The notes below the pieces were generated by a model. That model saw nothing but the letters and a program-made list of their open reading frames with translations, had not been told where the DNA came from and ran no database searches. A DNA stretch of 15,124 nucleotides from a virus (taxonomy: Duplodnaviria > Heunggongvirae > Uroviricota > Caudoviricetes): IMG/VR virus record IMGVR_UViG_2728369181_000009. One strand, written 5' to 3'. The translations under genes and the position numbers were made by a program. Numbering within the stretch: position 1 is the first letter of the stretch; each line of letters opens with the position of its first letter. Positions 5,972 to 14,290 of the stretch are shown here, one piece after another.

Positions 5972-7777
5972 TTATGTTCTGTCGTTAATCCCTGTAGCTG
6001 CTGGCAACCAGCCATCAGCATCATCATCTAACAGAACATTTGTTATCACTCGCCCTTTATCCGGGCCTTTAGTGCATTTAGCCCGCTTATACTCCTTTCC
6101 GTATTCCGCCATAGCTCCTGGCATATCAGTACCAAAGCGTGTCAGTGATACTGGTTTTCCCAGGCCATGCGCTGACATATAGGCTAAATAAGCATGATAC
6201 AGGTATCGCCTCGGGCTAAATGGCACTATTTCCGCATTGCCCACCATCATTCCTTCACATTTAACCAACGACATCAGATAGCCGCAAAAGTCCACCAGTG
6301 AATCACCTTCGCGCTTTATCAACAGCGCTTCTTCTGATTTTTGCTGCTCATAAAGTAGTCTTTTAGCTTCGTCCTGGTCGGTAAATCGTGTTAGCAAATG
6401 GCGAATCACTACCGCCAGTTCGCCTTCTATCTTTTCCGCCAGCATGGGATCGCGTTCGTTCTCCGGTACGACCTCAGAGAAATTAAATATCACCCTACGA
6501 CGCGAGATCCCCCCGCTTCGGTCACTGAATGACATGGCGTTATTGTTTACCGCAAGCACTACTGCCGGAATACGTGTGGAGTAGGGGGCTTTATGTTTCG
6601 GATCAATTGCCACCTTGTCGCCGCCAGTAATTGCCTTAATTCCTGCACCATCGCCAGCGTAGCGAGTCATATCCGGCATGATAATCAGCGAAAAGCCAAC
6701 TACTAACGCGCGTTCCCTTGCGTCTTCCAGAGCCTTCATGCTTGCCGATACTGTGTTGGCCTTACCCGCCAGCATGGTACAAATCTCAGCCATCACACTT
6801 TTACCGCTTCCGCCTGGGCCTGTTACCTCAAGGAATAACTGCCAGTCGTACCGGTTCGCCAGTACCATGAATAATGCCGCCAGTACGCGATCAGCTTTAC
6901 GCTCATTATCTGCCACCGAACGACGCAGCCACTTCCAGAAATTCGGCGCATGTGTTGCCAGCGTTTCCCCCTCTGCTGGTGGGCTGAACGGTAATTCACT
7001 GGCATTTAACAACCAGTCATTTTTGTTATGCTCCCGAAAATTTCCCGTCCGGGTATCAAATACCCCGTTACTGAATCCAATAAGATTCCTGTCTGCCCCG
7101 CCCATAACAGGCAGGCTCAATTTCATTGTGTCTACGGCAAATTTAATGGCGTTTTGCGAATAACTGATTCCAGCATCAATAAAAATCTTCGCCATAGACC
7201 GCTGGAGTTCCTTATCAGATACAGGCACCCAGACAATTCCGTTGTAATGGTGAACTACATCAGAATCATCATTTATAGCCAGTGCTCTTCCATAATATTC
7301 AAGTAACACTTCCCCTCTCTGGCTGGCTCCCATCTGATTTAGTGCTGGCCTGGATAGGTCAATATTTTTTGTGGCTAATTTCATCGCTGAAACTTCCCCA
7401 CTCTCTGCCTGTTCGCGGATCCGTTGCAGGTAGTCGCGCCAGTTTTCCGGCTCCCGGTCGGTGATACCTTTGTATAATTTCGCGTCCTGTACACCAGCCA
7501 GCGCCAGCTTTTCAGCAATAGCATTGATCTGGATTGGCTCTATCTCCCCCGCGAGATAGACACGCGCAAAGCGACGTTCATCGTCGACAATGCGGATATT
7601 CGCCAGGTCTGCCAGTTGCTTTGGCCCCAGGTAAACAGGAGGCACGTTATCGCCGTGTTTTCGTCCTTCGCTTTCAATCCAGTGTTGAGCATGGGCGTAA
7701 GCATCCGTCCCGGCAAAAATGATTACCTCGGTGAATTTATCCTTCGGCTGATATTTTAAATTCGGTGCGTTTTTCAC
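5972..7777 (-). CDS. Replication primase/helicase, 601 aa (P4 alpha-like; P4-family primase C-terminal NTPase domain)
   Basis: Walker A motif VTGPGGSGKS in the C-terminal half, an N-terminal primase-like region, size and position upstream of the iterons. Start overlaps the upstream gene stop (ATGA). Confidence 0.8.
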   Translation of the reverse strand: MKNAPNLKYQPKDKFTEVIIFAGTDAYAHAQHWIESEGRKHGDNVPPVYLGPKQLADLANIRIVDDERRFARVYLAGEIEPIQINAIAEKLALAGVQDAKLYKGITDREPENWRDYLQRIREQAESGEVSAMKLATKNIDLSRPALNQMGASQRGEVLLEYYGRALAINDDSDVVHHYNGIVWVPVSDKELQRSMAKIFIDAGISYSQNAIKFAVDTMKLSLPVMGGADRNLIGFSNGVFDTRTGNFREHNKNDWLLNASELPFSPPAEGETLATHAPNFWKWLRRSVADNERKADRVLAALFMVLANRYDWQLFLEVTGPGGSGKSVMAEICTMLAGKANTVSASMKALEDARERALVVGFSLIIMPDMTRYAGDGAGIKAITGGDKVAIDPKHKAPYSTRIPAVVLAVNNNAMSFSDRSGGISRRRVIFNFSEVVPENERDPMLAEKIEGELAVVIRHLLTRFTDQDEAKRLLYEQQKSEEALLIKREGDSLVDFCGYLMSLVKCEGMMVGNAEIVPFSPRRYLYHAYLAYMSAHGLGKPVSLTRFGTDMPGAMAEYGKEYKRAKCTKGPDKGRVITNVLLDDDADGWLPAATGINDRT

Positions 7778-8495: not shown

Positions 8496-8871
8496 GTTTA
8501 CCCCCCTGAATGACCTGATAACCGCAACTGGTCAGCAATTCGATAAATTCCGGCAGTGTGCCGAAACAGCAATCATCACGCAGACGTTCGCAGGATACTT
8601 CAACGCCGTTTTCGTAGTGACTCACCATACACCCGGTAAAATGCAGATCATCATCGTGATGGCACGTTGACGGCTTAATCAGTCGCGCACGTTCCGCCAG
8701 CTCCAGCAATGCTTCAACGCTTCCGGCAATTGCACCATCCGGCAGGTGATAATTACTTACCACGCGTCCATTCTCCACGTTGACCAGTAGCTGCCCGGAA
8801 AATATCTCGTCAAACTGAATGCTGTTAAGGTCAGAAATTGACAGGTTATGCATGGTGCACCTCCTGTACAT
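8488..8871 (-). CDS. Hypothetical protein, 121-127 aa
   Basis: ORF in the coupled operon; alternative start at 8853 (MHNLSISD...). No family recognised. Confidence 0.45.
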   Translation of the reverse strand: MYRRCTMHNLSISDLNSIQFDEIFSGQLLVNVENGRVVSNYHLPDGAIAGSVEALLELAERARLIKPSTCHHDDDLHFTGCMVSHYENGVEVSCERLRDDCCFGTLPEFIELLTSCGYQVIQGGKHA

Positions 8872-9070
8872 CAGCCATGATAATTTTTCCGGCCTTATCC
8901 AGTGCCTGATCGGCTTTCAGCTGCACAAATGCTAAATAATGGGAGATGCATTCTGATTCTCTGGCTGCGTGTTTATGCGCCACACCAGCGATAGCAGAAA
9001 TCTCAATAAGTGAATCCATCAGCGTTTTGATAGCGTCTACCGCTGCATCAGGCCATGTTGCATTACACAT
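8846..9070 (-). CDS. Hypothetical small protein, 74 aa
   Basis: ORF in the coupled operon, overlapping its upstream neighbour by 8 bp. Confidence 0.4.
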   Translation of the reverse strand: MCNATWPDAAVDAIKTLMDSLIEISAIAGVAHKHAARESECISHYLAFVQLKADQALDKAGKIIMADVQEVHHA

Positions 9071-9428
9071 GCTCCACCTCCTGGCGAATACGGGCAGCGA
9101 ATACCATCACGCAGCCATCAGGAGATTGCTGGCGTGCTTCCTGTTCGCTGGTGGCCTCGATGTGAATCACGCGCGGTTGTGCCGTACTCAGGGCGATAAA
9201 ACGCCAGATAAAATTGTTTTCGCATTTCTGAATAAACAGCGTGTTTTCTTCGCGCCCTTTCCATGTTGCCGAGATATAGCCCATGTCATTGAGCATCTCG
9301 CAGGCATCAACCAGCGTATCGGCGGCTACGTGTACAGTGTTTTTACCGTCAGCAATGCAATCACGGTGCACCGCCAGGAAGGTGTATATAAATTTAGGGT
9401 GAGTTTGGGTATGCTGTGTTCCAGCCAT
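9063..9428 (-). CDS. Hypothetical protein, 121 aa; first gene of the leftward early operon
   Basis: Internal ATG at 9428 (MAGTQHTQTHPKF...) with GAGG RBS 7 nt upstream. This is the protein-like C-terminal segment of the artefactual 528 aa ORF and sits directly downstream of the palindromic operator. Confidence 0.5.
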   Translation of the reverse strand: MAGTQHTQTHPKFIYTFLAVHRDCIADGKNTVHVAADTLVDACEMLNDMGYISATWKGREENTLFIQKCENNFIWRFIALSTAQPRVIHIEATSEQEARQQSPDGCVMVFAARIRQEVEHV

Positions 9429-9494
9429 AATCGTTACCTCGTTTAACGGTTTGGTTAGACGCCCTGCATGTGTGCCACCACTGCGGGGCGTTGC

Positions 9495-9527
9495 TGTATA
9501 TACACCACAACAATTGGTGTATATACA
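9495..9527. promoter_or_regulatory. Perfect 13 bp inverted repeat operator (TGTATATACACCA, 7 bp spacer, TGGTGTATATACA) in the divergent control region
   Basis: Read directly from the sequence. Related half-sites ACACC-TTTT-GGTGT (9570-9583) and palindrome GTGTACAC (9587-9594) follow. Lies between the divergent starts at 9428 (-) and 9619 (+). Confidence 0.6.
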
Positions 9528-9618
9528 AATTAAATTTAAGTGTGCTACAGTGTCAAGTGTTTTATCAACACACCTTTTGGTGTAATGTGTACACACCTCA
9601 AAATAACCGGACATTCTG

Positions 9619-9924
9619 ATGGCAACAGGAAACATCAACAGCAGATCGCAAATGAAAAATATCCGCTTCCCCCATGATGTAATCGAGGAAATGGAAAATT
9701 CGAAAACGGAAGGGGAAACAATAGCCGCTTTCGTGATTACAGCCGTTCGCGGTGAAATCGCCCGCCGCCAGGCAGAAGGAAGCGGAGAAAATCCCCTGGT
9801 TTCTTCGCTCGATGCCCTAGCGCAGGTGGAAAAAATCGGAGTCAAAGCTGCCGAGGAAATCGGGCAACTCGTCACCGTCGCGCGTGAAGAACTCCAGCGG
9901 CGCAAAGCTAAAGAGCAGGAATAA
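9619..9924 (+). CDS. Ribbon-helix-helix (Arc/Mnt/CopG-like) DNA-binding protein, 90-101 aa; candidate island repressor
   Basis: From the second ATG (9652): MKNIRFPHDVIEEMENSKTEGETIAAFVITAVRGEI fits the RHH pattern (beta strand, helix A, G-x-T turn, helix B), followed by a charged helical tail. One of only two plus-strand genes in the island, divergent from the early operon. No strong SD at either start. Confidence 0.55.
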   Translation: MATGNINSRSQMKNIRFPHDVIEEMENSKTEGETIAAFVITAVRGEIARRQAEGSGENPLVSSLDALAQVEKIGVKAAEEIGQLVTVAREELQRRKAKEQE

Positions 9925-9933
9925 CCACTATAG

Positions 9934-10182
9934 GTGCCGTGGTGTGAGGAACTACGGTGCATTATTTTACAGGGCAGCGCCATGACCAACAAAGAATCAA
10001 CCAATACACCATCACCGGCACGGAAAAAACAGCGCAGAAAGATAGCGTACGAGCATGAGTCAGACAGATTCGCGCCCTGTGCGTTTGTCCTTGAGAAATT
10101 CCTTAAAGAGTACAGGTGCACAAAAATGGGGTCGCATACCTGGAAAACATCGCGGCATGGCAATGTTAAAGAGCAGGAATAG
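9934..10182 (+). CDS. Small basic protein, 66-82 aa, co-oriented with the RHH gene
   Basis: ORF with GTG at 9934 or ATG at 9982; ends in KEQE-stop on the same 15 bp sequence as the RHH gene. Coding status is moderate. Confidence 0.35.
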   Translation: MPWCEELRCIILQGSAMTNKESTNTPSPARKKQRRKIAYEHESDRFAPCAFVLEKFLKEYRCTKMGSHTWKTSRHGNVKEQE

Positions 10183-10649
10183 CCCACCAGCAAGCCAGCA
10201 TATTCACCATAATGACCCTCAGTTAAACATAGAGTCATTGGTGCAAAGCTGACACATTGCCCACCAGCCGCAAATCTGGCATTGTTGGCGATGCGTTCAA
10301 GTATGTAGCTTTCCCACTGGCGGCCCTCTGCGGTCGCCTTTGTTTTATCCAGAACGAAATCAGACATCAGATTGATCAGCACCTGGCGACCTGACAAAAT
10401 CGCATCAGTCGCGCCACCAGCAAAATTTTTTGCTTTCCGGACAGTGTGACCAACGACATTTTGCAGCAAAATATTCTGCATTTCTGGCGTGCTGTAGTAA
10501 CGGTGATCAGCGCCTTCACTCTGTGCGACCACAACGCTATAATCTGCCTCGTAGACAGTAAGCAATATGGCGCAGTAGGCTATTCGTTCACAAAGGCGCT
10601 CCGGCAACGGGGCGCTTTCTCTTTTTGTAACGGTCAGAGCGTTACACAT
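10183..10649 (-). CDS. Hypothetical protein (about 150 aa protein-like segment) with no in-frame stop before running antisense into the RHH module
   Basis: ATG at 10649 overlaps the AntA-like stop by 8 bp and the first ~150 codons look protein-like. The frame then stays open through the antisense of 9619..10182 (Cys/Ser/Arg-rich junk) to 9063. The 3' end is undefined; a disrupted gene or artefact is possible. Confidence 0.3.
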
Positions 10650-11442
10650 GGCTGTTTTCCTCCATGCGACGGGCTAACCAACGTTGCGAAAGACGAATTA
10701 ATTCAGCTTTCCGCTGGTGGTAGTCCTGGCCTAACTCAATCAGCGTGATATTGCTCTGCTCAAGGTAAGAAAGGTGCTCAAGCTGCAACGTGCTCATGTG
10801 GTCGCGTGGTTCGCCTGTGATGCCGTTCGCCTGCGCCCACTGTTTTGCAGTCATGCCACCCAGCACGATACGCGCCAGCATATTGGCTTCCGTGGTGTAG
10901 TGGTGCTGTAGAGTGTTTTTACCCAGTTCAGCCCGGTACGCCTCCAGCGCGGCGCACATCGGCTTAAAGTAGCTGGCAACGGTGATACGGGCTTTCAGTT
11001 CCCGGCGTAACGCTGCGGAACGCACTGGCGCTACCTTGTGTAGCTCCTCCTCGCATTTGATGAAGTACTGGCGAACGGCGCGGCCCTGTTCGGTGCGTTC
11101 GACCATCGCCAGTTCTTTCGCCATGTTCACGGTAATGATGTACTCAAGAGCTGTTTGCTGGCGAGATTTTGCGCTCACCGGATCGGGTCGGCTCAAATAT
11201 TCAACAACCTCATAATCCACGCTTTCCGTGAAGCCGTATTCTTCAATGCGCCCCTTGATCCACGAACGGAAAACGCGCCCTACACCTAACGCCTTATGCA
11301 ACGCTCTGGCGCTAACAATATTGGTTTCACGCCTGCCAATAACGCCAGAAATAACCGGGATAATTTCGCCGAAATTTTGTTGGCTCTGGTTTTCAGGCCG
11401 AACGAAGCCCTGCCCCTGTACGGGCGTTTTTCGCAGTTTCAT
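10642..11442 (-). CDS. AntA-domain phage antirepressor-like protein, 266 aa
   Basis: Segment ISARALHKALGVGRVFRSWIKGRIEEYGFTESVDYEVV matches the AntA/AntB N-terminal domain signature. AGGAG RBS 6 nt upstream of the ATG. Confidence 0.6.
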   Translation of the reverse strand: MKLRKTPVQGQGFVRPENQSQQNFGEIIPVISGVIGRRETNIVSARALHKALGVGRVFRSWIKGRIEEYGFTESVDYEVVEYLSRPDPVSAKSRQQTALEYIITVNMAKELAMVERTEQGRAVRQYFIKCEEELHKVAPVRSAALRRELKARITVASYFKPMCAALEAYRAELGKNTLQHHYTTEANMLARIVLGGMTAKQWAQANGITGEPRDHMSTLQLEHLSYLEQSNITLIELGQDYHQRKAELIRLSQRWLARRMEENSHV

Positions 11443-11519: not shown

Positions 11520-11717
11520 TCAGGTAGCTGTTCCGCGTGATTCCGCAATACGCTGATTAATCCACTCGTCAATTTCACTCTCAACGAAAGCAATAGCTCG
11601 CGAGCCAATTTTAACTGATGCAGGAAATTTACCTTGCCCCATAAGGCGATAAATCCATGCCTTGCTATATCCAGTTCTACGCTGAACTTCTGTTAAACGA
11701 ATAAGCGTATTTGACAT
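11520..11717 (-). CDS. alpA: AlpA-family transcriptional regulator / excisionase-like, 65 aa
   Basis: IRLTEVQRRTGYSKAWIYRLMGQGKFPASVKIGSRAIAFVESEIDEWINQR has the AlpA/MerR-type HTH pattern of CP4-57 AlpA. GAGGT RBS. Placed downstream of a P4-type int gene. Confidence 0.85.
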   Translation of the reverse strand: MSNTLIRLTEVQRRTGYSKAWIYRLMGQGKFPASVKIGSRAIAFVESEIDEWINQRIAESRGTAT

Positions 11718-11786
11718 ATATTTACCTCATAACGTCTACTCAATTTGACGAGGTAATCCTGGCACAGAAATAACGAATATTTTCAT

Positions 11787-11896
11787 ACCCTCAGGCCTAA
11801 TGGTTACCGGAAGGAAATTAACCCTAAGGGTGATGGTAAAATTGACGGGGAAGATAAAAAAATACCCTCAGGGTAACAGTAAATCACCCTCAGGGT
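11787..11896. promoter_or_regulatory. Four copies of near-palindromic ACCCT(C/A)AGG(G/C)(T/C) in the alpA upstream region
   Basis: ACCCTCAGGCC at 11787-11797, ACCCTAAGGGT at 11821-11831, ACCCTCAGGGT at 11864-11874 and 11886-11896, each followed by a GGTA-containing tail. All lie between the stop of the 265 aa gene and alpA. Confidence 0.55.
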
Positions 11897-11911: not shown

Positions 11912-12709
11912 TTAATCCGGCTTTGCGTTCTTTTGGCTGTTGTCTCGGTTAATAGGGCAGGCAGTCCTCTCTATGAGCGTTGCAAGTGCATTACTTGCCC
12001 CCCACTGCTTAAGCTCCCTGGTTATCGCTTCTTGATTTCCCCTGGTGGCAAAATCATTTTCTGGATCGTAATTGGCCCACTCTCTGTTTCTAATCTCAAT
12101 AGCCTTAGCTAATGGGTCTTTATCCCAGTATTTATATAAGTGTATCGGGCGCTCTTGCTCTAACTGCTCTATCCTTGCCCTTAACTCTGCGTTTTCTTTT
12201 TCCAGCATTGCGATTTGGGATAATAAATCATCCTCTGTACGCAACTCTTTCTTTTCAATATCGCGTCCTTGTGCCTCGTCATTTTCAGAAGAGTTAGCGC
12301 CTTCCAGCTTCGTTAACGCGTCAAGGACATCGGGAAAAATTGCGAAAATTTCACCCCTTATAAATCCAATGTTCTCAAATTCGGGATCTTCCCAATAACC
12401 GGACACCAGAAAACCATTTTCATCCCTCTCACCAGGTAAACAACCACGTTTCCGAACCGCATTCAGATTTCTATAAAGAACATCATAATCAAATTCATCC
12501 CGATACGGGTTACAAAAAGATTCCAACAGCTTAAATTCATTTACTGTGTACAGGCGGATATGTTCTCCGCTTATTCTCCTGAGTATCCAAGTTATGACAT
12601 CTGAAACATCATAATCATCACCAGCGACCTTAAGCACGACCTCAAGAAATTCACGTAAAGAAATAAAATCTTTTTTGTATTCGTTTAATTCGGCATGAAT
12701 ATCAATCAT
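11912..12709 (-). CDS. Hypothetical acidic protein with central coiled coil, about 265 aa; accessory gene between int and alpA
   Basis: ATG at 12709 with GAGGTG RBS 6 nt upstream (the track ORF starts two codons earlier at GTG 12715). Asp/Glu-rich, with a heptad-like segment LLSQIAMLEKENAELRARIEQLEQER. No catalytic motif seen. Confidence 0.55.
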   Translation of the reverse strand: MIDIHAELNEYKKDFISLREFLEVVLKVAGDDYDVSDVITWILRRISGEHIRLYTVNEFKLLESFCNPYRDEFDYDVLYRNLNAVRKRGCLPGERDENGFLVSGYWEDPEFENIGFIRGEIFAIFPDVLDALTKLEGANSSENDEAQGRDIEKKELRTEDDLLSQIAMLEKENAELRARIEQLEQERPIHLYKYWDKDPLAKAIEIRNREWANYDPENDFATRGNQEAITRELKQWGASNALATLIERTACPINRDNSQKNAKPD

Positions 12710-12837
12710 ACGCACACCTCAGCGTCCTCTACTGTAGTGGCTGTACCAGTCCGTCGAGGTGTACGGATTTTCGGGAGCGACCCTAGACACAGACTTTTCT
12801 TTCGTCGCTCAAAGTCTACTACTGTATACGCAACCAG

Positions 12838-14052
12838 TCATCCACATTTTCCGAACTTGCCATGCACCACGTTACCGCCATGTTCGAGCGAATCCATATA
12901 GTCGGCGTACCACTGTAGCATCTCGCGCCGCCCGTCCAGATATTGCGCATGGTTGTACGTGCCACGAATTGAGTTTTTATCGACGTGCGCGAGCTGCGTT
13001 TCTATCCACGCAGTGTTATAGCCCTGCTCATGCAAAATGGTGCTCATGGTGTGCCGGAATCCATGACCAGTAACGCGCCCGGCATAGCCGATACGACGAA
13101 TGAGCACATTCATCGCCATTTCACTCATTGGCTTACTGTGGCGAATACGACCGGGGAAAATAAACTGATACTGGCCTGTCATGTTTTTTAACTGCTCCAG
13201 TATTTTTATTGCCTGTTCTGGTAATGGCACGCAATGCGGACGGCGCATCTTCATTCGTTCTTTAGGCACTTCCCACAAACGATTATCAAAATCGATCTCC
13301 CGCCATTCTGCCTGCCGTAATTCCCCGGGTCTGACACCTGTCAGAATTAATAACCGCATTGCCAGTTTGACGATCTGGCTTCCGGTGTACGTATTAAAAA
13401 CGCGAAAAAATTCCGGCAGTTCGTCGGCCTTCAAATAGGCGTAATGCTCTTTTTTATGTGGAGCAAATGCGCTCACCAGGTCAGGGGCTGGATTATATTC
13501 AGCGCGTCCGGTGATGATTGCGTACCGGAACACCTCGCCGCATCGCTGGCGAACCTTACGCAATTTTTCAGTCGCACCACGGTCGTTAAGACGGGAAAGA
13601 ACCGCCAGCAATTCCATCGGCTTAATTTCTGCGATCGGCCTTGCGCCAATGTACGGAAAAACGTCTTTTTCAAACGTCTCGATCATTTCCTCGGCGTATG
13701 ACGATGACCACCTGTCGATCCGCTTTTCGTACCATTCGCGAGCGATACCCTCAAAAGTATTGCCAAATTTGCTCGCCTGTTCTCGCTTTTGGGCTTTTCT
13801 GGCCTCACTTGGATTTATACCACCAATAAGAAGCCTTTTAGCCTCATCCCTTGCAGCCCTGGCATCAGACAGAGACACATCAGGGTACACGCCCAACGAC
13901 AACATTTTGGGCTTTCCTGCAAACCTGTAGCGCAGTCGCCACCCTTTCGAACCGTTCGGCTCAATGAGCAACGAAAGCCCGTTACCGTCATTGAGCGTAT
14001 AAGCCTTTTCTTTCGGCTTCGCACGCCTGATAGCAAGGTCTGAAAGCAGCAT
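12838..14052 (-). CDS. int: P4-family tyrosine integrase, about 404 aa
   Basis: N-terminal LNDGNGLSLLIEPNGSKGWRLRYRF arm-binding-type domain; C-terminal catalytic residues (R in VRPGELRQ, HGFRHT, Y in GTYNHAQY). Adjacent to the tRNA 3' end. The ATG at 14052 (MLLSDLA...) is preferred over the upstream in-frame ATG at 14091. Confidence 0.9.
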   Translation of the reverse strand: MLLSDLAIRRAKPKEKAYTLNDGNGLSLLIEPNGSKGWRLRYRFAGKPKMLSLGVYPDVSLSDARAARDEAKRLLIGGINPSEARKAQKREQASKFGNTFEGIAREWYEKRIDRWSSSYAEEMIETFEKDVFPYIGARPIAEIKPMELLAVLSRLNDRGATEKLRKVRQRCGEVFRYAIITGRAEYNPAPDLVSAFAPHKKEHYAYLKADELPEFFRVFNTYTGSQIVKLAMRLLILTGVRPGELRQAEWREIDFDNRLWEVPKERMKMRRPHCVPLPEQAIKILEQLKNMTGQYQFIFPGRIRHSKPMSEMAMNVLIRRIGYAGRVTGHGFRHTMSTILHEQGYNTAWIETQLAHVDKNSIRGTYNHAQYLDGRREMLQWYADYMDSLEHGGNVVHGKFGKCG

Positions 14053-14127
14053 GTGTATAGCTCCAAAAAATAAATTTTGTCCTATACGCATTACTATACA
14101 CTTCTGTGTGTAGATTCTGGTAGTTGT

Positions 14128-14216: not shown

Positions 14217-14290
14217 TGGAGCGGGCGAAGGGAATCGAACCCTCGTATAGAGCTTGGGAAGCTCTCGTTCTACCATTGAACTACGCCCGC
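14217..14290 (-). tRNA. glyU: tRNA-Gly (anticodon CCC)
   Basis: Reverse complement reads GCGGGCGTAGTTCAATGGTAGAACGAGAGCTTCCCAAGCTCTATACGAGGGTTCGATTCCCTTCGCCCGCTCCA, 74 nt, with cloverleaf, CCC anticodon in loop CTTCCCAAG, and encoded CCA. Confidence 0.95.

What the first reader, a model, noticed from the sequence alone, without database searches (positions are those of the whole stretch)
11912..12709. Acidic coiled-coil protein inserted between int and alpA
In the satellite and cryptic-prophage layouts I know, alpA follows int closely. Here a 265 aa Asp/Glu-rich protein with a central heptad coiled coil and its own GAGGTG RBS is inserted between them, with the ACCCTNAGGGT array immediately downstream. 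Position and composition fit a cargo gene; strongly acidic proteins in mobile elements are sometimes DNA mimics or anti-restriction factors. No catalytic motif is visible.
Basis: partly seen in the sequence, partly recalled or inferred. Interest (0 to 1): 0.65.

Follow-up and report, generated by a model that had tools for sequence, protein, structure and literature searches.

The report
Zipper protein with palindromes before alpA
An optional gene between the integrase and the master activator alpA of an E. coli phage satellite encodes a leucine-zipper protein of an undescribed family that always travels with its own array of CCCTNAGGG palindromes in front of alpA, so it looks like a swappable DNA-binding control module and not a DNA mimic.

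Summary
A 265-aa acidic protein (pI 4.7) with a four-heptad leucine zipper lies between int and alpA, on the minus strand, in a PICI-type satellite inserted at tRNA-Gly. Three exact ACCCTNAGGGT palindromes and one degenerate site follow it.

The int-alpA slot is variable. In related E. coli islands it holds this family, unrelated proteins, or nothing. It is also a documented PICI accessory position. The "cargo" reading is therefore partly right.

The DNA-mimic or anti-restriction idea finds no support. There is no Ocr/ArdA-like fold. The conserved part of the family is a near-neutral C-terminal four-helix domain, not the acidic part.

The family has no Pfam, PADLOC or PDB relative and only 112 representatives among 1.84 billion proteins. 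It has variable N-termini and an invariant C-terminal position for the conserved domain.

In 10 of 13 loci, 2-6 helically phased CCCTNAGGG sites lie within 200 bp after the stop codon. The sites follow this protein family, not the AlpA allele or the integrase.

Most likely this is a dimeric site-specific DNA-binding module that gates alpA (confidence about 0.5). Binding, the direction of the effect and any sensing by the N-terminus are inferred. An Rfam int-alpA RNA motif forms the gene's leader.

The parts
11912..12709 (-). Gene for the 265-aa slot protein, here called X (identical to WP_000565286.1)
   Evidence: ORF and translation. RefSeq CDS in L001, L014 and L015. 146 of 5426 complete E. 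coli genomes carry it over at least 80% of the query.
12290..12709 (-). Variable, acidic N-terminal domain (residues 1-140, pI 4.5). Strand-helix-helix-strand-strand start, confidently folded.
12152..12235 (-). Leucine zipper (residues 159-186): d = L162, L169, L176, L183; a = I166, N173, I180
   Evidence: AlphaFold2 helix 159-186. Heptad register. L169, L176 and L183 are conserved. Only sub-threshold coiled-coil Pfam hits.
11945..12151 (-). Conserved C-terminal four-helix domain (residues 187-255, pI 8.1), ending in the ACPIxR motif. An undescribed domain family.
11786..11896 (.). Array of CCCTNAGGG palindromes between the X stop codon and alpA. Exact ACCCTNAGGGT at 11821-11831, 11864-11874 and 11886-11896. 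Degenerate promoter-proximal site TACCCTCAGGCCT at 11786-11798, centred 75 bp before the alpA ATG.
   Evidence: Enrichment. Conserved in relatives. Centre spacings of 22, 43 and 34 bp, phased at about 10.5-11 bp across loci.
12726..12793 (-). int-alpA RNA motif (Rfam RF02996). It forms the leader directly upstream of the X ribosome-binding site.
   Evidence: 40.3 bits against a gathering score of 35.8. The same motif lies 14-16 nt before the first slot ORF's start codon in L002, L003, L018 and L146 (X family; in L018 the 108-aa ORF) and L011 (DUF6387). It was not found in L010, L012, L013, L145, L147 or L148.
11520..11717 (-). alpA, the presumed target of the module. AlpA is the master activator of Gram-negative PICIs.
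   Evidence: PF05930, E 2.4e-19. Role as described in PMC6092414 and PMC11773190.
12838..14091 (-). Tyrosine integrase. RefSeq starts it at 14052, giving 404 aa.
   Evidence: Pfam domains. RefSeq annotation.
14217..14290 (-). tRNA-Gly(CCC), the integration site, next to actS/ygeR
   Evidence: ARAGORN. Rfam. RefSeq context.

Best explanation
X is an optional, swappable control module placed in front of alpA in a PICI-type phage satellite.

It most likely forms a parallel dimer through a GCN4-like leucine zipper (Asn at a central a position). As a dimer it would bind the phased array of CCCTNAGGG palindromes that lies between its own stop codon and the alpA promoter. In this way it would set whether alpA, the satellite's master activator, can be transcribed. 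It could act as a gate or insulator against read-through from int and X, or as an upstream co-regulator.

The conserved C-terminal four-helix domain sits directly after the zipper and is the best candidate for the DNA-contacting part. The variable acidic N-terminal domain is the candidate input or sensor, possibly for a helper-phage protein.

Shown:
- the anatomy of the protein;
- the variability of the slot;
- the deep and exclusive linkage between the family and the palindromes;
- the helical phasing of the sites, and a conserved distance from the last site to the alpA start codon.

Inferred:
- that X itself binds the sites;
- which domain makes the contact;
- the direction of the effect on alpA;
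- any sensing by the N-terminus.
For: 1. Linkage. In 10 of 13 loci with a family member, 2-6 CCCTNAGGG sites (at most 1 mismatch) lie within 200 bp after the stop codon. About 0.04 are expected from the flanks, and no exact site occurs anywhere else in these loci. This holds for relatives whose C-domain is only about 25-30% identical. It also holds in L021, a prophage-like element where no alpA was found downstream.

2. Double dissociation from AlpA. AlpA alleles 79-81% identical to the window's, but without X (L011, L013), have 0 sites. AlpA alleles only 28-39% identical (L016, L148, L150), or no alpA at all (L021), with X present, have the sites.

3. Dissociation from the integrase. Integrases 96% (thrW) or 93% (glyU) identical occur with or without X, and the sites occur only with X.

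4. Site spacing. Centre spacings cluster at whole helical turns (21-24, 31-34, 41-44, 55, 67 bp). The mean resultant length is 0.55-0.59 at a 10.5-11 bp period, Rayleigh p about 0.001. L015 gains a fourth site through a 33-bp insertion.

5. Position relative to alpA. The last site is 60-75 bp before the alpA ATG in 6 loci, including very divergent ones.

6. Dimer geometry. A zipper with Asn at an a position fits a two-fold symmetric dimer on a two-fold symmetric site (the dimer preference is established coiled-coil knowledge, Harbury 1993). L006 keeps the 5+1+5 geometry with different half-sites, ACTATNATAGT.

7. Context. In 11 of the 12 family contexts examined, the gene sits directly upstream of an AlpA-like gene. 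No homologue was found in 50,697 phage records or 72,556 plasmid records.

8. Cassette boundaries. The alpA promoter region lies inside the cassette that is exchanged with the slot gene.
Against: - The C-domain is only mildly basic (pI 8.1 here).
- Specificity does not track C-domain similarity in a simple way. P0037 is 48% identical in the C-domain yet has a different palindrome, while P0110 is about 27% identical and has the same one.
- The sites lie upstream of the likely core promoter, so simple repression by occlusion is not obvious.
- No good sigma-70 promoter was found for alpA.
- Islands with an empty slot exist (L012, L013, L147), and EcCICFT073 is induced by helpers apparently without a slot gene (PMC6092414). 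X is therefore not needed for alpA control in general.
- Unrelated genes (DUF6387, a 260-aa protein) occupy the same slot, as expected for a cargo hotspot.
Confidence: 0.5

Rival explanations
1. X is accessory cargo, for example an anti-phage or superinfection-exclusion factor, in the known 5' immune hotspot of PICIs. Under this reading the palindromes only autoregulate or insulate the cassette, and the protein's real target is a phage component.
For: The slot is variable and sometimes empty. The literature places accessory and immune genes at this end of PICIs (PMC10085698, PMC11364771). A variable N-terminus with a conserved C-terminus is a pattern seen in sensor-effector defence proteins. 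In L021 the gene follows a CI-like repressor, a typical moron or exclusion position. X and DUF6387 share the same int-alpA RNA leader.
Against: There is no PADLOC hit, and no catalytic, membrane or nucleotide-binding domain. The family was not found in phages or plasmids. In the contexts examined it was seen only next to AlpA-like genes or, in L021, next to a CI-like repressor gene. This reading does not explain phased multi-copy sites at a fixed distance from alpA. It is not exclusive of the main explanation.
Confidence: 0.27
2. The palindromes are binding sites for AlpA (autoactivation) or for the integrase, and X is an unrelated passenger that happens to sit beside them.
For: AlpA activates its own promoter (PMC6092414, PMC11773190). 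In E. coli the exact AlpA allele WP_000072422.1 was seen only together with the X family.
Against: The sites dissociate from both AlpA similarity and integrase similarity. They are present in L021, where no alpA was found downstream of the X-like gene.
Confidence: 0.1
3. The palindromes act as RNA or DNA hairpins, such as weak terminators or 3' stabilisers of the X transcript, and not as protein-binding sites.
For: The scan flags two of them as terminator-like, and one is followed by a run of T. Every slot variant carries some inverted repeat before alpA.
Against: The stems are only 5 bp. The sequence, and not just the pairing potential, is conserved across proteins about 27% identical. The copies are helically phased. 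The T-run is not conserved.
Confidence: 0.08
4. X is an acidic DNA mimic or anti-restriction factor.
For: pI 4.7 and net charge -19. It is carried on a mobile element.
Confidence: 0.03

Closest known systems
SaPI Stl / PICI Rpr master repressors (Gram-positive PICIs)
   Same: Both are satellite-encoded, sit next to int, and are highly divergent between elements. The proposed logic is also shared: a DNA-bound regulator whose variable part senses a helper-phage protein and couples satellite induction to the helper (PMC6092414).
   Different: There is no sequence or fold relation. Stl has an N-terminal helix-turn-helix and is transcribed divergently from the genes it represses. X is co-oriented with alpA, its sites lie upstream of an activator gene, and it is optional. 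No function has been tested.
Accessory and immune genes of the PICI 5' hotspot (for example EcCIMP1_002; systems of Fillol-Salom 2022, as cited in PMC11364771)
   Same: Same slot between int and the regulator, with variable occupancy among otherwise similar islands (PMC10085698, PMC11773190).
   Different: X matches no known defence model. It comes with a conserved multi-copy site array aimed at alpA.
bZIP-type dimeric DNA binders on compact palindromes (GCN4/AP-1, TGAsTCA)
   Same: Both have a four-heptad zipper with Asn at an a position, and short palindromic half-sites separated by a single central base.
   Different: X has no basic region N-terminal to the zipper; residues 141-158 are acidic and disordered. 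The candidate DNA-binding domain is a folded four-helix domain C-terminal to the zipper. The Pfam bZIP_2 score of 15.0 is below the 22.3 cut-off. The RefSeq name 'bZIP transcription factor' in one genome most likely reflects only the coiled-coil match.
Bro-N/AntA/Rha domain-shuffling regulators of satellites and phages (PMC10111431)
   Same: Modular proteins with swapped N-terminal and C-terminal parts, found in the early region of Gram-negative PICIs. Mosaic recombination occurs inside the gene.
   Different: X shares none of their Pfam domains. It lies in the integration zone upstream of alpA, not in the Bro zone downstream.

Membership tests
Gram-negative PICI (phage-inducible chromosomal island) | An int, alpA and primase/replicase core, co-oriented, about 10-17 kb, inserted at a specific site, with no phage structural or lysis genes in the core | tested here: met
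   int, AlpA and a D5-type primase-helicase, all on the minus strand at tRNA-Gly. The AntA, Icd-like, ProQ/FinO and PerC accessory set matches published PICIs (PMC11773190, PMC13612085).
Gram-negative PICI (phage-inducible chromosomal island) | Induction, replication and packaging that depend on a helper phage | not testable with these tools
   Needs experiments.
PICI 5' accessory-gene hotspot | Variable gene content between int and the regulator in otherwise related islands | tested here: met
   The slot holds the X family, a 234-aa protein, a 260-aa protein, DUF6387, or nothing, behind integrases 93-98% identical. L011 and L013 carry the same island proteins with and without DUF6387.
Ocr/ArdA-type DNA mimics | A fold and surface charge pattern that imitate B-DNA, with very high acidic density | tested here: not met
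Known anti-phage defence systems (PADLOC-DB) | A match to a model of a known or candidate defence protein | tested here: not met
   0 families at E<=1.
bZIP transcription factors | A basic DNA-contact region directly N-terminal to the leucine zipper, and a Pfam bZIP score above the cut-off | tested here: not met
   Residues 141-158 have 6 D/E against 4 K/R and pLDDT below 50. bZIP_2 scores 15.0 against a cut-off of 22.3.
AlpA / excisionase-type winged helix (HTH_17), considered for the N-terminal domain | Profile similarity to AlpA/HTH_17 | tested here: not met
Stl/Rpr-type satellite master repressor | Helix-turn-helix DNA binding at a divergent promoter region, with repression relieved by a helper-phage protein | tested here: inconclusive
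   The layout differs: X is co-oriented and its sites lie upstream of alpA. There is no homology. Binding and derepression cannot be tested here.
int-alpA RNA (Rfam RF02996), the leader of the gene | A covariance-model score at or above the gathering threshold | tested here: met
   40.3 bits against 35.8 at 12726-12793, minus strand. Scores of 44-47 bits in five related loci.

The most novel reading that the evidence does not exclude
X is the missing helper-sensing switch of a subset of Gram-negative PICIs. Its fast-evolving N-terminal domain would bind a helper-phage protein. That binding would change occupancy of the CCCTNAGGG operators by the zipper-held C-terminal domains, and so license alpA transcription. 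This would be a functional analogue of SaPI Stl built from an entirely new DNA-binding domain. The int-alpA RNA motif would then be the leader that tunes this switch.
Probability: 0.22. Interest if true: 0.8.

Novelty: new variant of a known kind. Interest (0 to 1): 0.58.

Why it matters
How helper phages switch on alpA in Gram-negative PICIs is an open question. The authors of PMC6092414 state that a global repressor is unclear and that the inducer is unknown.

This locus offers a concrete, testable candidate for at least one island lineage, which includes the thrW island of E. coli 55989 and O104:H4. The candidate is a modular protein with a defined operator array at a fixed distance from alpA.

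The work also defines an undescribed protein domain together with its probable DNA motif. It suggests a reading of the orphan Rfam int-alpA RNA as the leader of whichever gene occupies the slot.

If X turns out to be only cargo, it is still a new family in a known defence hotspot.

Tried and rejected
- Sequence family searches returned only coiled-coil noise. These were Pfam, PHROGs, NCBIfam and PADLOC, plus PDB searches by sequence and by profile.
- The idea that the N-terminus is an AlpA-like winged helix was rejected by hhalign, probability 0.6%.
- A scan of genome contigs for paired ACCCTNAGGGT was swamped by unrelated repeats in Chloroflexota, Desulfobacterales and Bacteroidota MAGs.
- tblastn of X and of a distant member against phages and plasmids found no match.
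- I looked for C-domain residues that separate CCCTNAGGG-associated members from members with other palindromes. None were clear.
- One member fused to a LacI-type ligand-binding domain (P0090) looked like a lead for DNA binding. Only half of the C-domain is present, so it is probably a truncation or fusion artefact.
- I considered integrase arm sites or excisionase (recombination-directionality) sites. The array is more than 2 kb from the att core, and it does not track the integrase.
- I considered partition or centromere sites and a small-terminase (TerS) analogy. There is no ParA-like gene, and L024 has its own TerS and TerL.
- Literature searches for the protein accession and for int-alpA found no functional work. 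Searches for DUF6387 and for an AlpA inducer returned few papers, whose hits I did not open for functional detail.

Full report
**Setting**

The window is an E. coli chromosomal island inserted at tRNA-Gly(CCC) (14217-14290, minus strand) next to actS/ygeR. All island core genes run on the minus strand:
- integrase, 12838-14091;
- the gene in question, here called X, 11912-12709;
- alpA, 11520-11717;
- an AntA-family gene, 10642-11442;
- an Icd-like region;
- DUF4222;
- a D5-type primase-helicase, 5972-7777.

In a 99.9% identical RefSeq locus, ProQ/FinO and PerC genes lie further on. This is the layout of classical Gram-negative PICI satellites (PMC6092414, PMC11773190, PMC13612085).

**Observation**

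- The ORF starts at the ATG at 12709, encodes 265 aa, and has GAGGTG 5 nt upstream.
- D+E is 20.8%, net charge is -19, and pI is 4.70.
- AlphaFold2 predicts a helix at 159-186. It has a textbook heptad pattern, with d = L162, L169, L176, L183 and a = I166, N173, I180.
- Three exact ACCCTNAGGGT palindromes lie at 11821, 11864 and 11886 and nowhere else in 15 kb. None of 200 shuffles reaches three.
- A degenerate fourth site lies at 11786-11798.

The gene is real and widespread. The identical protein WP_000565286.1 is annotated in many genomes, and 146 of 5426 complete E. coli genomes carry the region.

**What the protein is**

No Pfam, PHROG, NCBIfam, PADLOC or PDB family matches it beyond coiled-coil noise. 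The word-indexed homologue search found 43 relatives, those with an organism name all enterobacterial. Aligning them shows three parts:
- a variable N-terminal region, residues 1-140;
- the zipper;
- a strongly conserved C-terminal region, 187-255, ending in ACPIxR.

A profile of the C-terminal domain was searched against 1.84 billion representative proteins. It found only 112 proteins. Almost all carry the domain at the extreme C-terminus, behind 58-442 residues of diverse N-terminal sequence with no recurrent Pfam domain. N-terminal parts are acidic (median pI 5.0) and C-domains are near-neutral to basic (median pI 8.1).

**The slot is variable**

Related E. coli islands were compared.
- At glyU, integrases 93-98% identical are followed by one of three arrangements: an X-family gene (window, L146), an unrelated 234-aa protein with a faint C-terminal resemblance (L010), or no gene and a 549-bp spacer (L012).
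- At thrW, integrases 96-98% identical are followed by X (E. coli 55989, the O104:H4 lineage, EC5), by DUF6387 (L011), or by nothing (L013). L011 and L013 otherwise encode the same proteins.
- Islands at other sites that share the AntA module have a 260-aa unrelated protein (L145) or nothing (L147).

[quoted passage not shown] It also states that PICIs carry immune systems at their 5' or 3' ends (PMC11364771). EcCIMP1 has a small gene in this slot (PMC11773190).

**The palindromes belong to the protein family**

This is the main new result. I fetched the genomic context of family members at increasing distance:
- P0027 (Salmonella);
- P0034 (E. coli);
- P0036 (Salmonella);
- P0033 (Yersinia, split into 108-aa and 153-aa ORFs);
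- P0087, P0110, P0119, P0101, P0147 and P0037 (metagenomic).

In 11 of the 12 family contexts examined, the gene lies directly upstream of an AlpA-like gene. The exception, L021, is a prophage-like element where the gene follows a CI-like repressor gene and no alpA was found downstream.

In 10 of 13 loci, 2-6 CCCTNAGGG sites (at most one mismatch) lie within 200 bp after the stop codon. The flanks predict about 0.04 per 200 bp. Exact sites occur nowhere else in these loci. L021 is among the loci that have the sites.

The three exceptions have other palindromes at the same place. L006 has ACTATNATAGT, the same 5+1+5 geometry. L010 has ATAGTRCCCAC repeats. L024 has ATATCCTG-type repeats.

The sites do not follow AlpA. 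AlpA alleles 79-81% identical to the window's, but lacking X, have none. AlpA alleles only 28-39% identical, or no alpA, with X present, have them.

The sites do not follow the integrase either.

Site centres are spaced at whole helical turns: 21-24, 31-34, 41-44, 55 and 67 bp. The resultant length is 0.55-0.59 at a 10.5-11 bp period, Rayleigh p about 0.001. Some of these loci are related, so this is indicative only. One genome gains a fourth site through a 33-bp insertion. The last site lies 60-75 bp before the alpA start codon in six loci, including very divergent ones.

Comparing cassette boundaries shows that the alpA promoter region is exchanged together with the slot gene. Only about 20 bp before the alpA ATG, and about 40 bp after the int stop, are shared between X-type and L010-type islands.

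**Mechanism proposed**

A zipper with Asn at a central a position favours a parallel dimer (established coiled-coil knowledge). That would place two copies of the C-terminal domain side by side, which suits a compact two-fold symmetric site. Phased multiple sites suggest cooperative binding on one face of the DNA, upstream of a weak alpA promoter; no good sigma-70 match was found.

I therefore read X plus its array as a dimeric site-specific DNA-binding module that gates alpA. The variable N-terminus would be the possible input. I cannot tell whether it represses, insulates against read-through from int and X, or co-activates.

Several points weigh against this reading.
- Fold searches do not identify a DNA-binding fold.
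- Operator type does not track C-domain similarity in a simple way.
- Islands without X exist, so this is an optional layer of control.
- The cargo or defence reading remains viable and is not exclusive.

**An RNA leader**

Rfam's int-alpA RNA motif (RF02996) matches 12726-12793 on the minus strand, at 40.3 bits against a gathering score of 35.8. It ends 16 nt before the X start codon.

The same motif sits 14-16 nt before the first slot ORF's start codon in L002, L003, L018 and L146 (X family; in L018 the 108-aa ORF) and in L011 (DUF6387). It was not detected in loci with empty slots or other slot genes.

In these islands the motif is thus the 5' leader of the gene that occupies the slot, and not of alpA itself. 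I found no functional study of it.

**Verdict**

The "cargo in a variable slot" reading is partly right. The DNA-mimic idea is not supported.

The most interesting reading is a new modular regulator with its own operators placed in front of the master activator of a phage satellite. It would make the unsolved question of Gram-negative PICI induction testable for this lineage. All functional steps remain inferences from comparative genomics.

Noticed in passing
window 12726-12793 (-); L002 5919-5986; L003 5917-5984; L011 10279-10346 (-); L018 5575-5643; L146 6085-6152 (-): The Rfam int-alpA RNA motif (RF02996) ends 14-16 nt before the start codon of the first ORF in the slot. It precedes X-family cassettes (in L018 the 108-aa ORF ahead of X) and also the unrelated DUF6387 gene. 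It was not detected in loci with empty slots or other slot genes. It therefore looks like a cis leader of the slot gene and not an alpA element or a free sRNA.
   Followed up: partly
window 8800-10700, compared with L010, L011, L013, L018, L146, L147, L148: Related islands carry C4 antisense RNA, and most of them also isrK, in the Icd-like region (P4-type immunity RNAs). This window shows neither, even at E<=0.1. The 528-aa ORF at 9063-10649 is almost certainly spurious. RefSeq annotates an Icd-like gene and small ORFs there, and a YlcI/YnfO gene on the plus strand (about 9619-9924).
   Followed up: partly
window 12838-13095; The glyU and thrW integrases are only 65% identical in protein. Yet many thrW islands match the last 237-258 bp of this int gene at about 90-95% DNA identity. 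A recombination breakpoint therefore lies inside the 3' end of int, and the X-alpA-antA module moves between integrase types.
   Followed up: partly
L015 12123-12229 (E. coli EC5 and about 60 other genomes): A 33-bp insertion (three helical turns) in the X-alpA spacer adds a fourth exact CCCTNAGGG palindrome.
   Followed up: partly
L010 9173-10124 (STEC2018-553, glyU): A different 234-aa slot protein (WP_001123241.1) has a faint C-terminal resemblance to the X C-domain (WATYDPDN..., BLASTP E 0.008). It is followed by its own repeat set (AATAGTGGGCACTATT and two copies of ATAGTACCCAC). The DUF6387 cassette in L011 likewise has its own TCCGCT-type repeats before alpA. Cognate pairs of slot protein and repeat may be general.
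   Followed up: partly
L018-L020 5659-6462 (Yersinia): The family member is short (153 aa: zipper plus C-domain) and is preceded by a separate 108-aa ORF. This may be a split version in which the N-terminal part is a separate polypeptide.
   Followed up: no
L025-L104: Pairs of ACCCTNAGGGT 5-35 bp apart are a frequent repeat in MAGs of Chloroflexota, Desulfobacterales and Bacteroidota, some in tandem arrays (for example L057). They are probably unrelated repeat families.
   Followed up: no
L024 1-10468: A distant family member (P0087) sits upstream of AlpA, directly after a portal-to-TerL packaging block and before a D5 primase. This is a capsid-forming-PICI-like or circularly permuted element with no integrase called nearby.
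   Followed up: no
P0006, P0007, P0015 compared with the window protein: E. coli alleles of X are mosaics. P0007 shares the first half of the window's C-domain and then switches to the common ...ERGFSSRQAESIELVACPIKR ending. The window allele has an unusual tail (KQWGASNALATLIERTACPINRDNSQKNAKPD). Recombination therefore occurs inside the gene.
   Followed up: no
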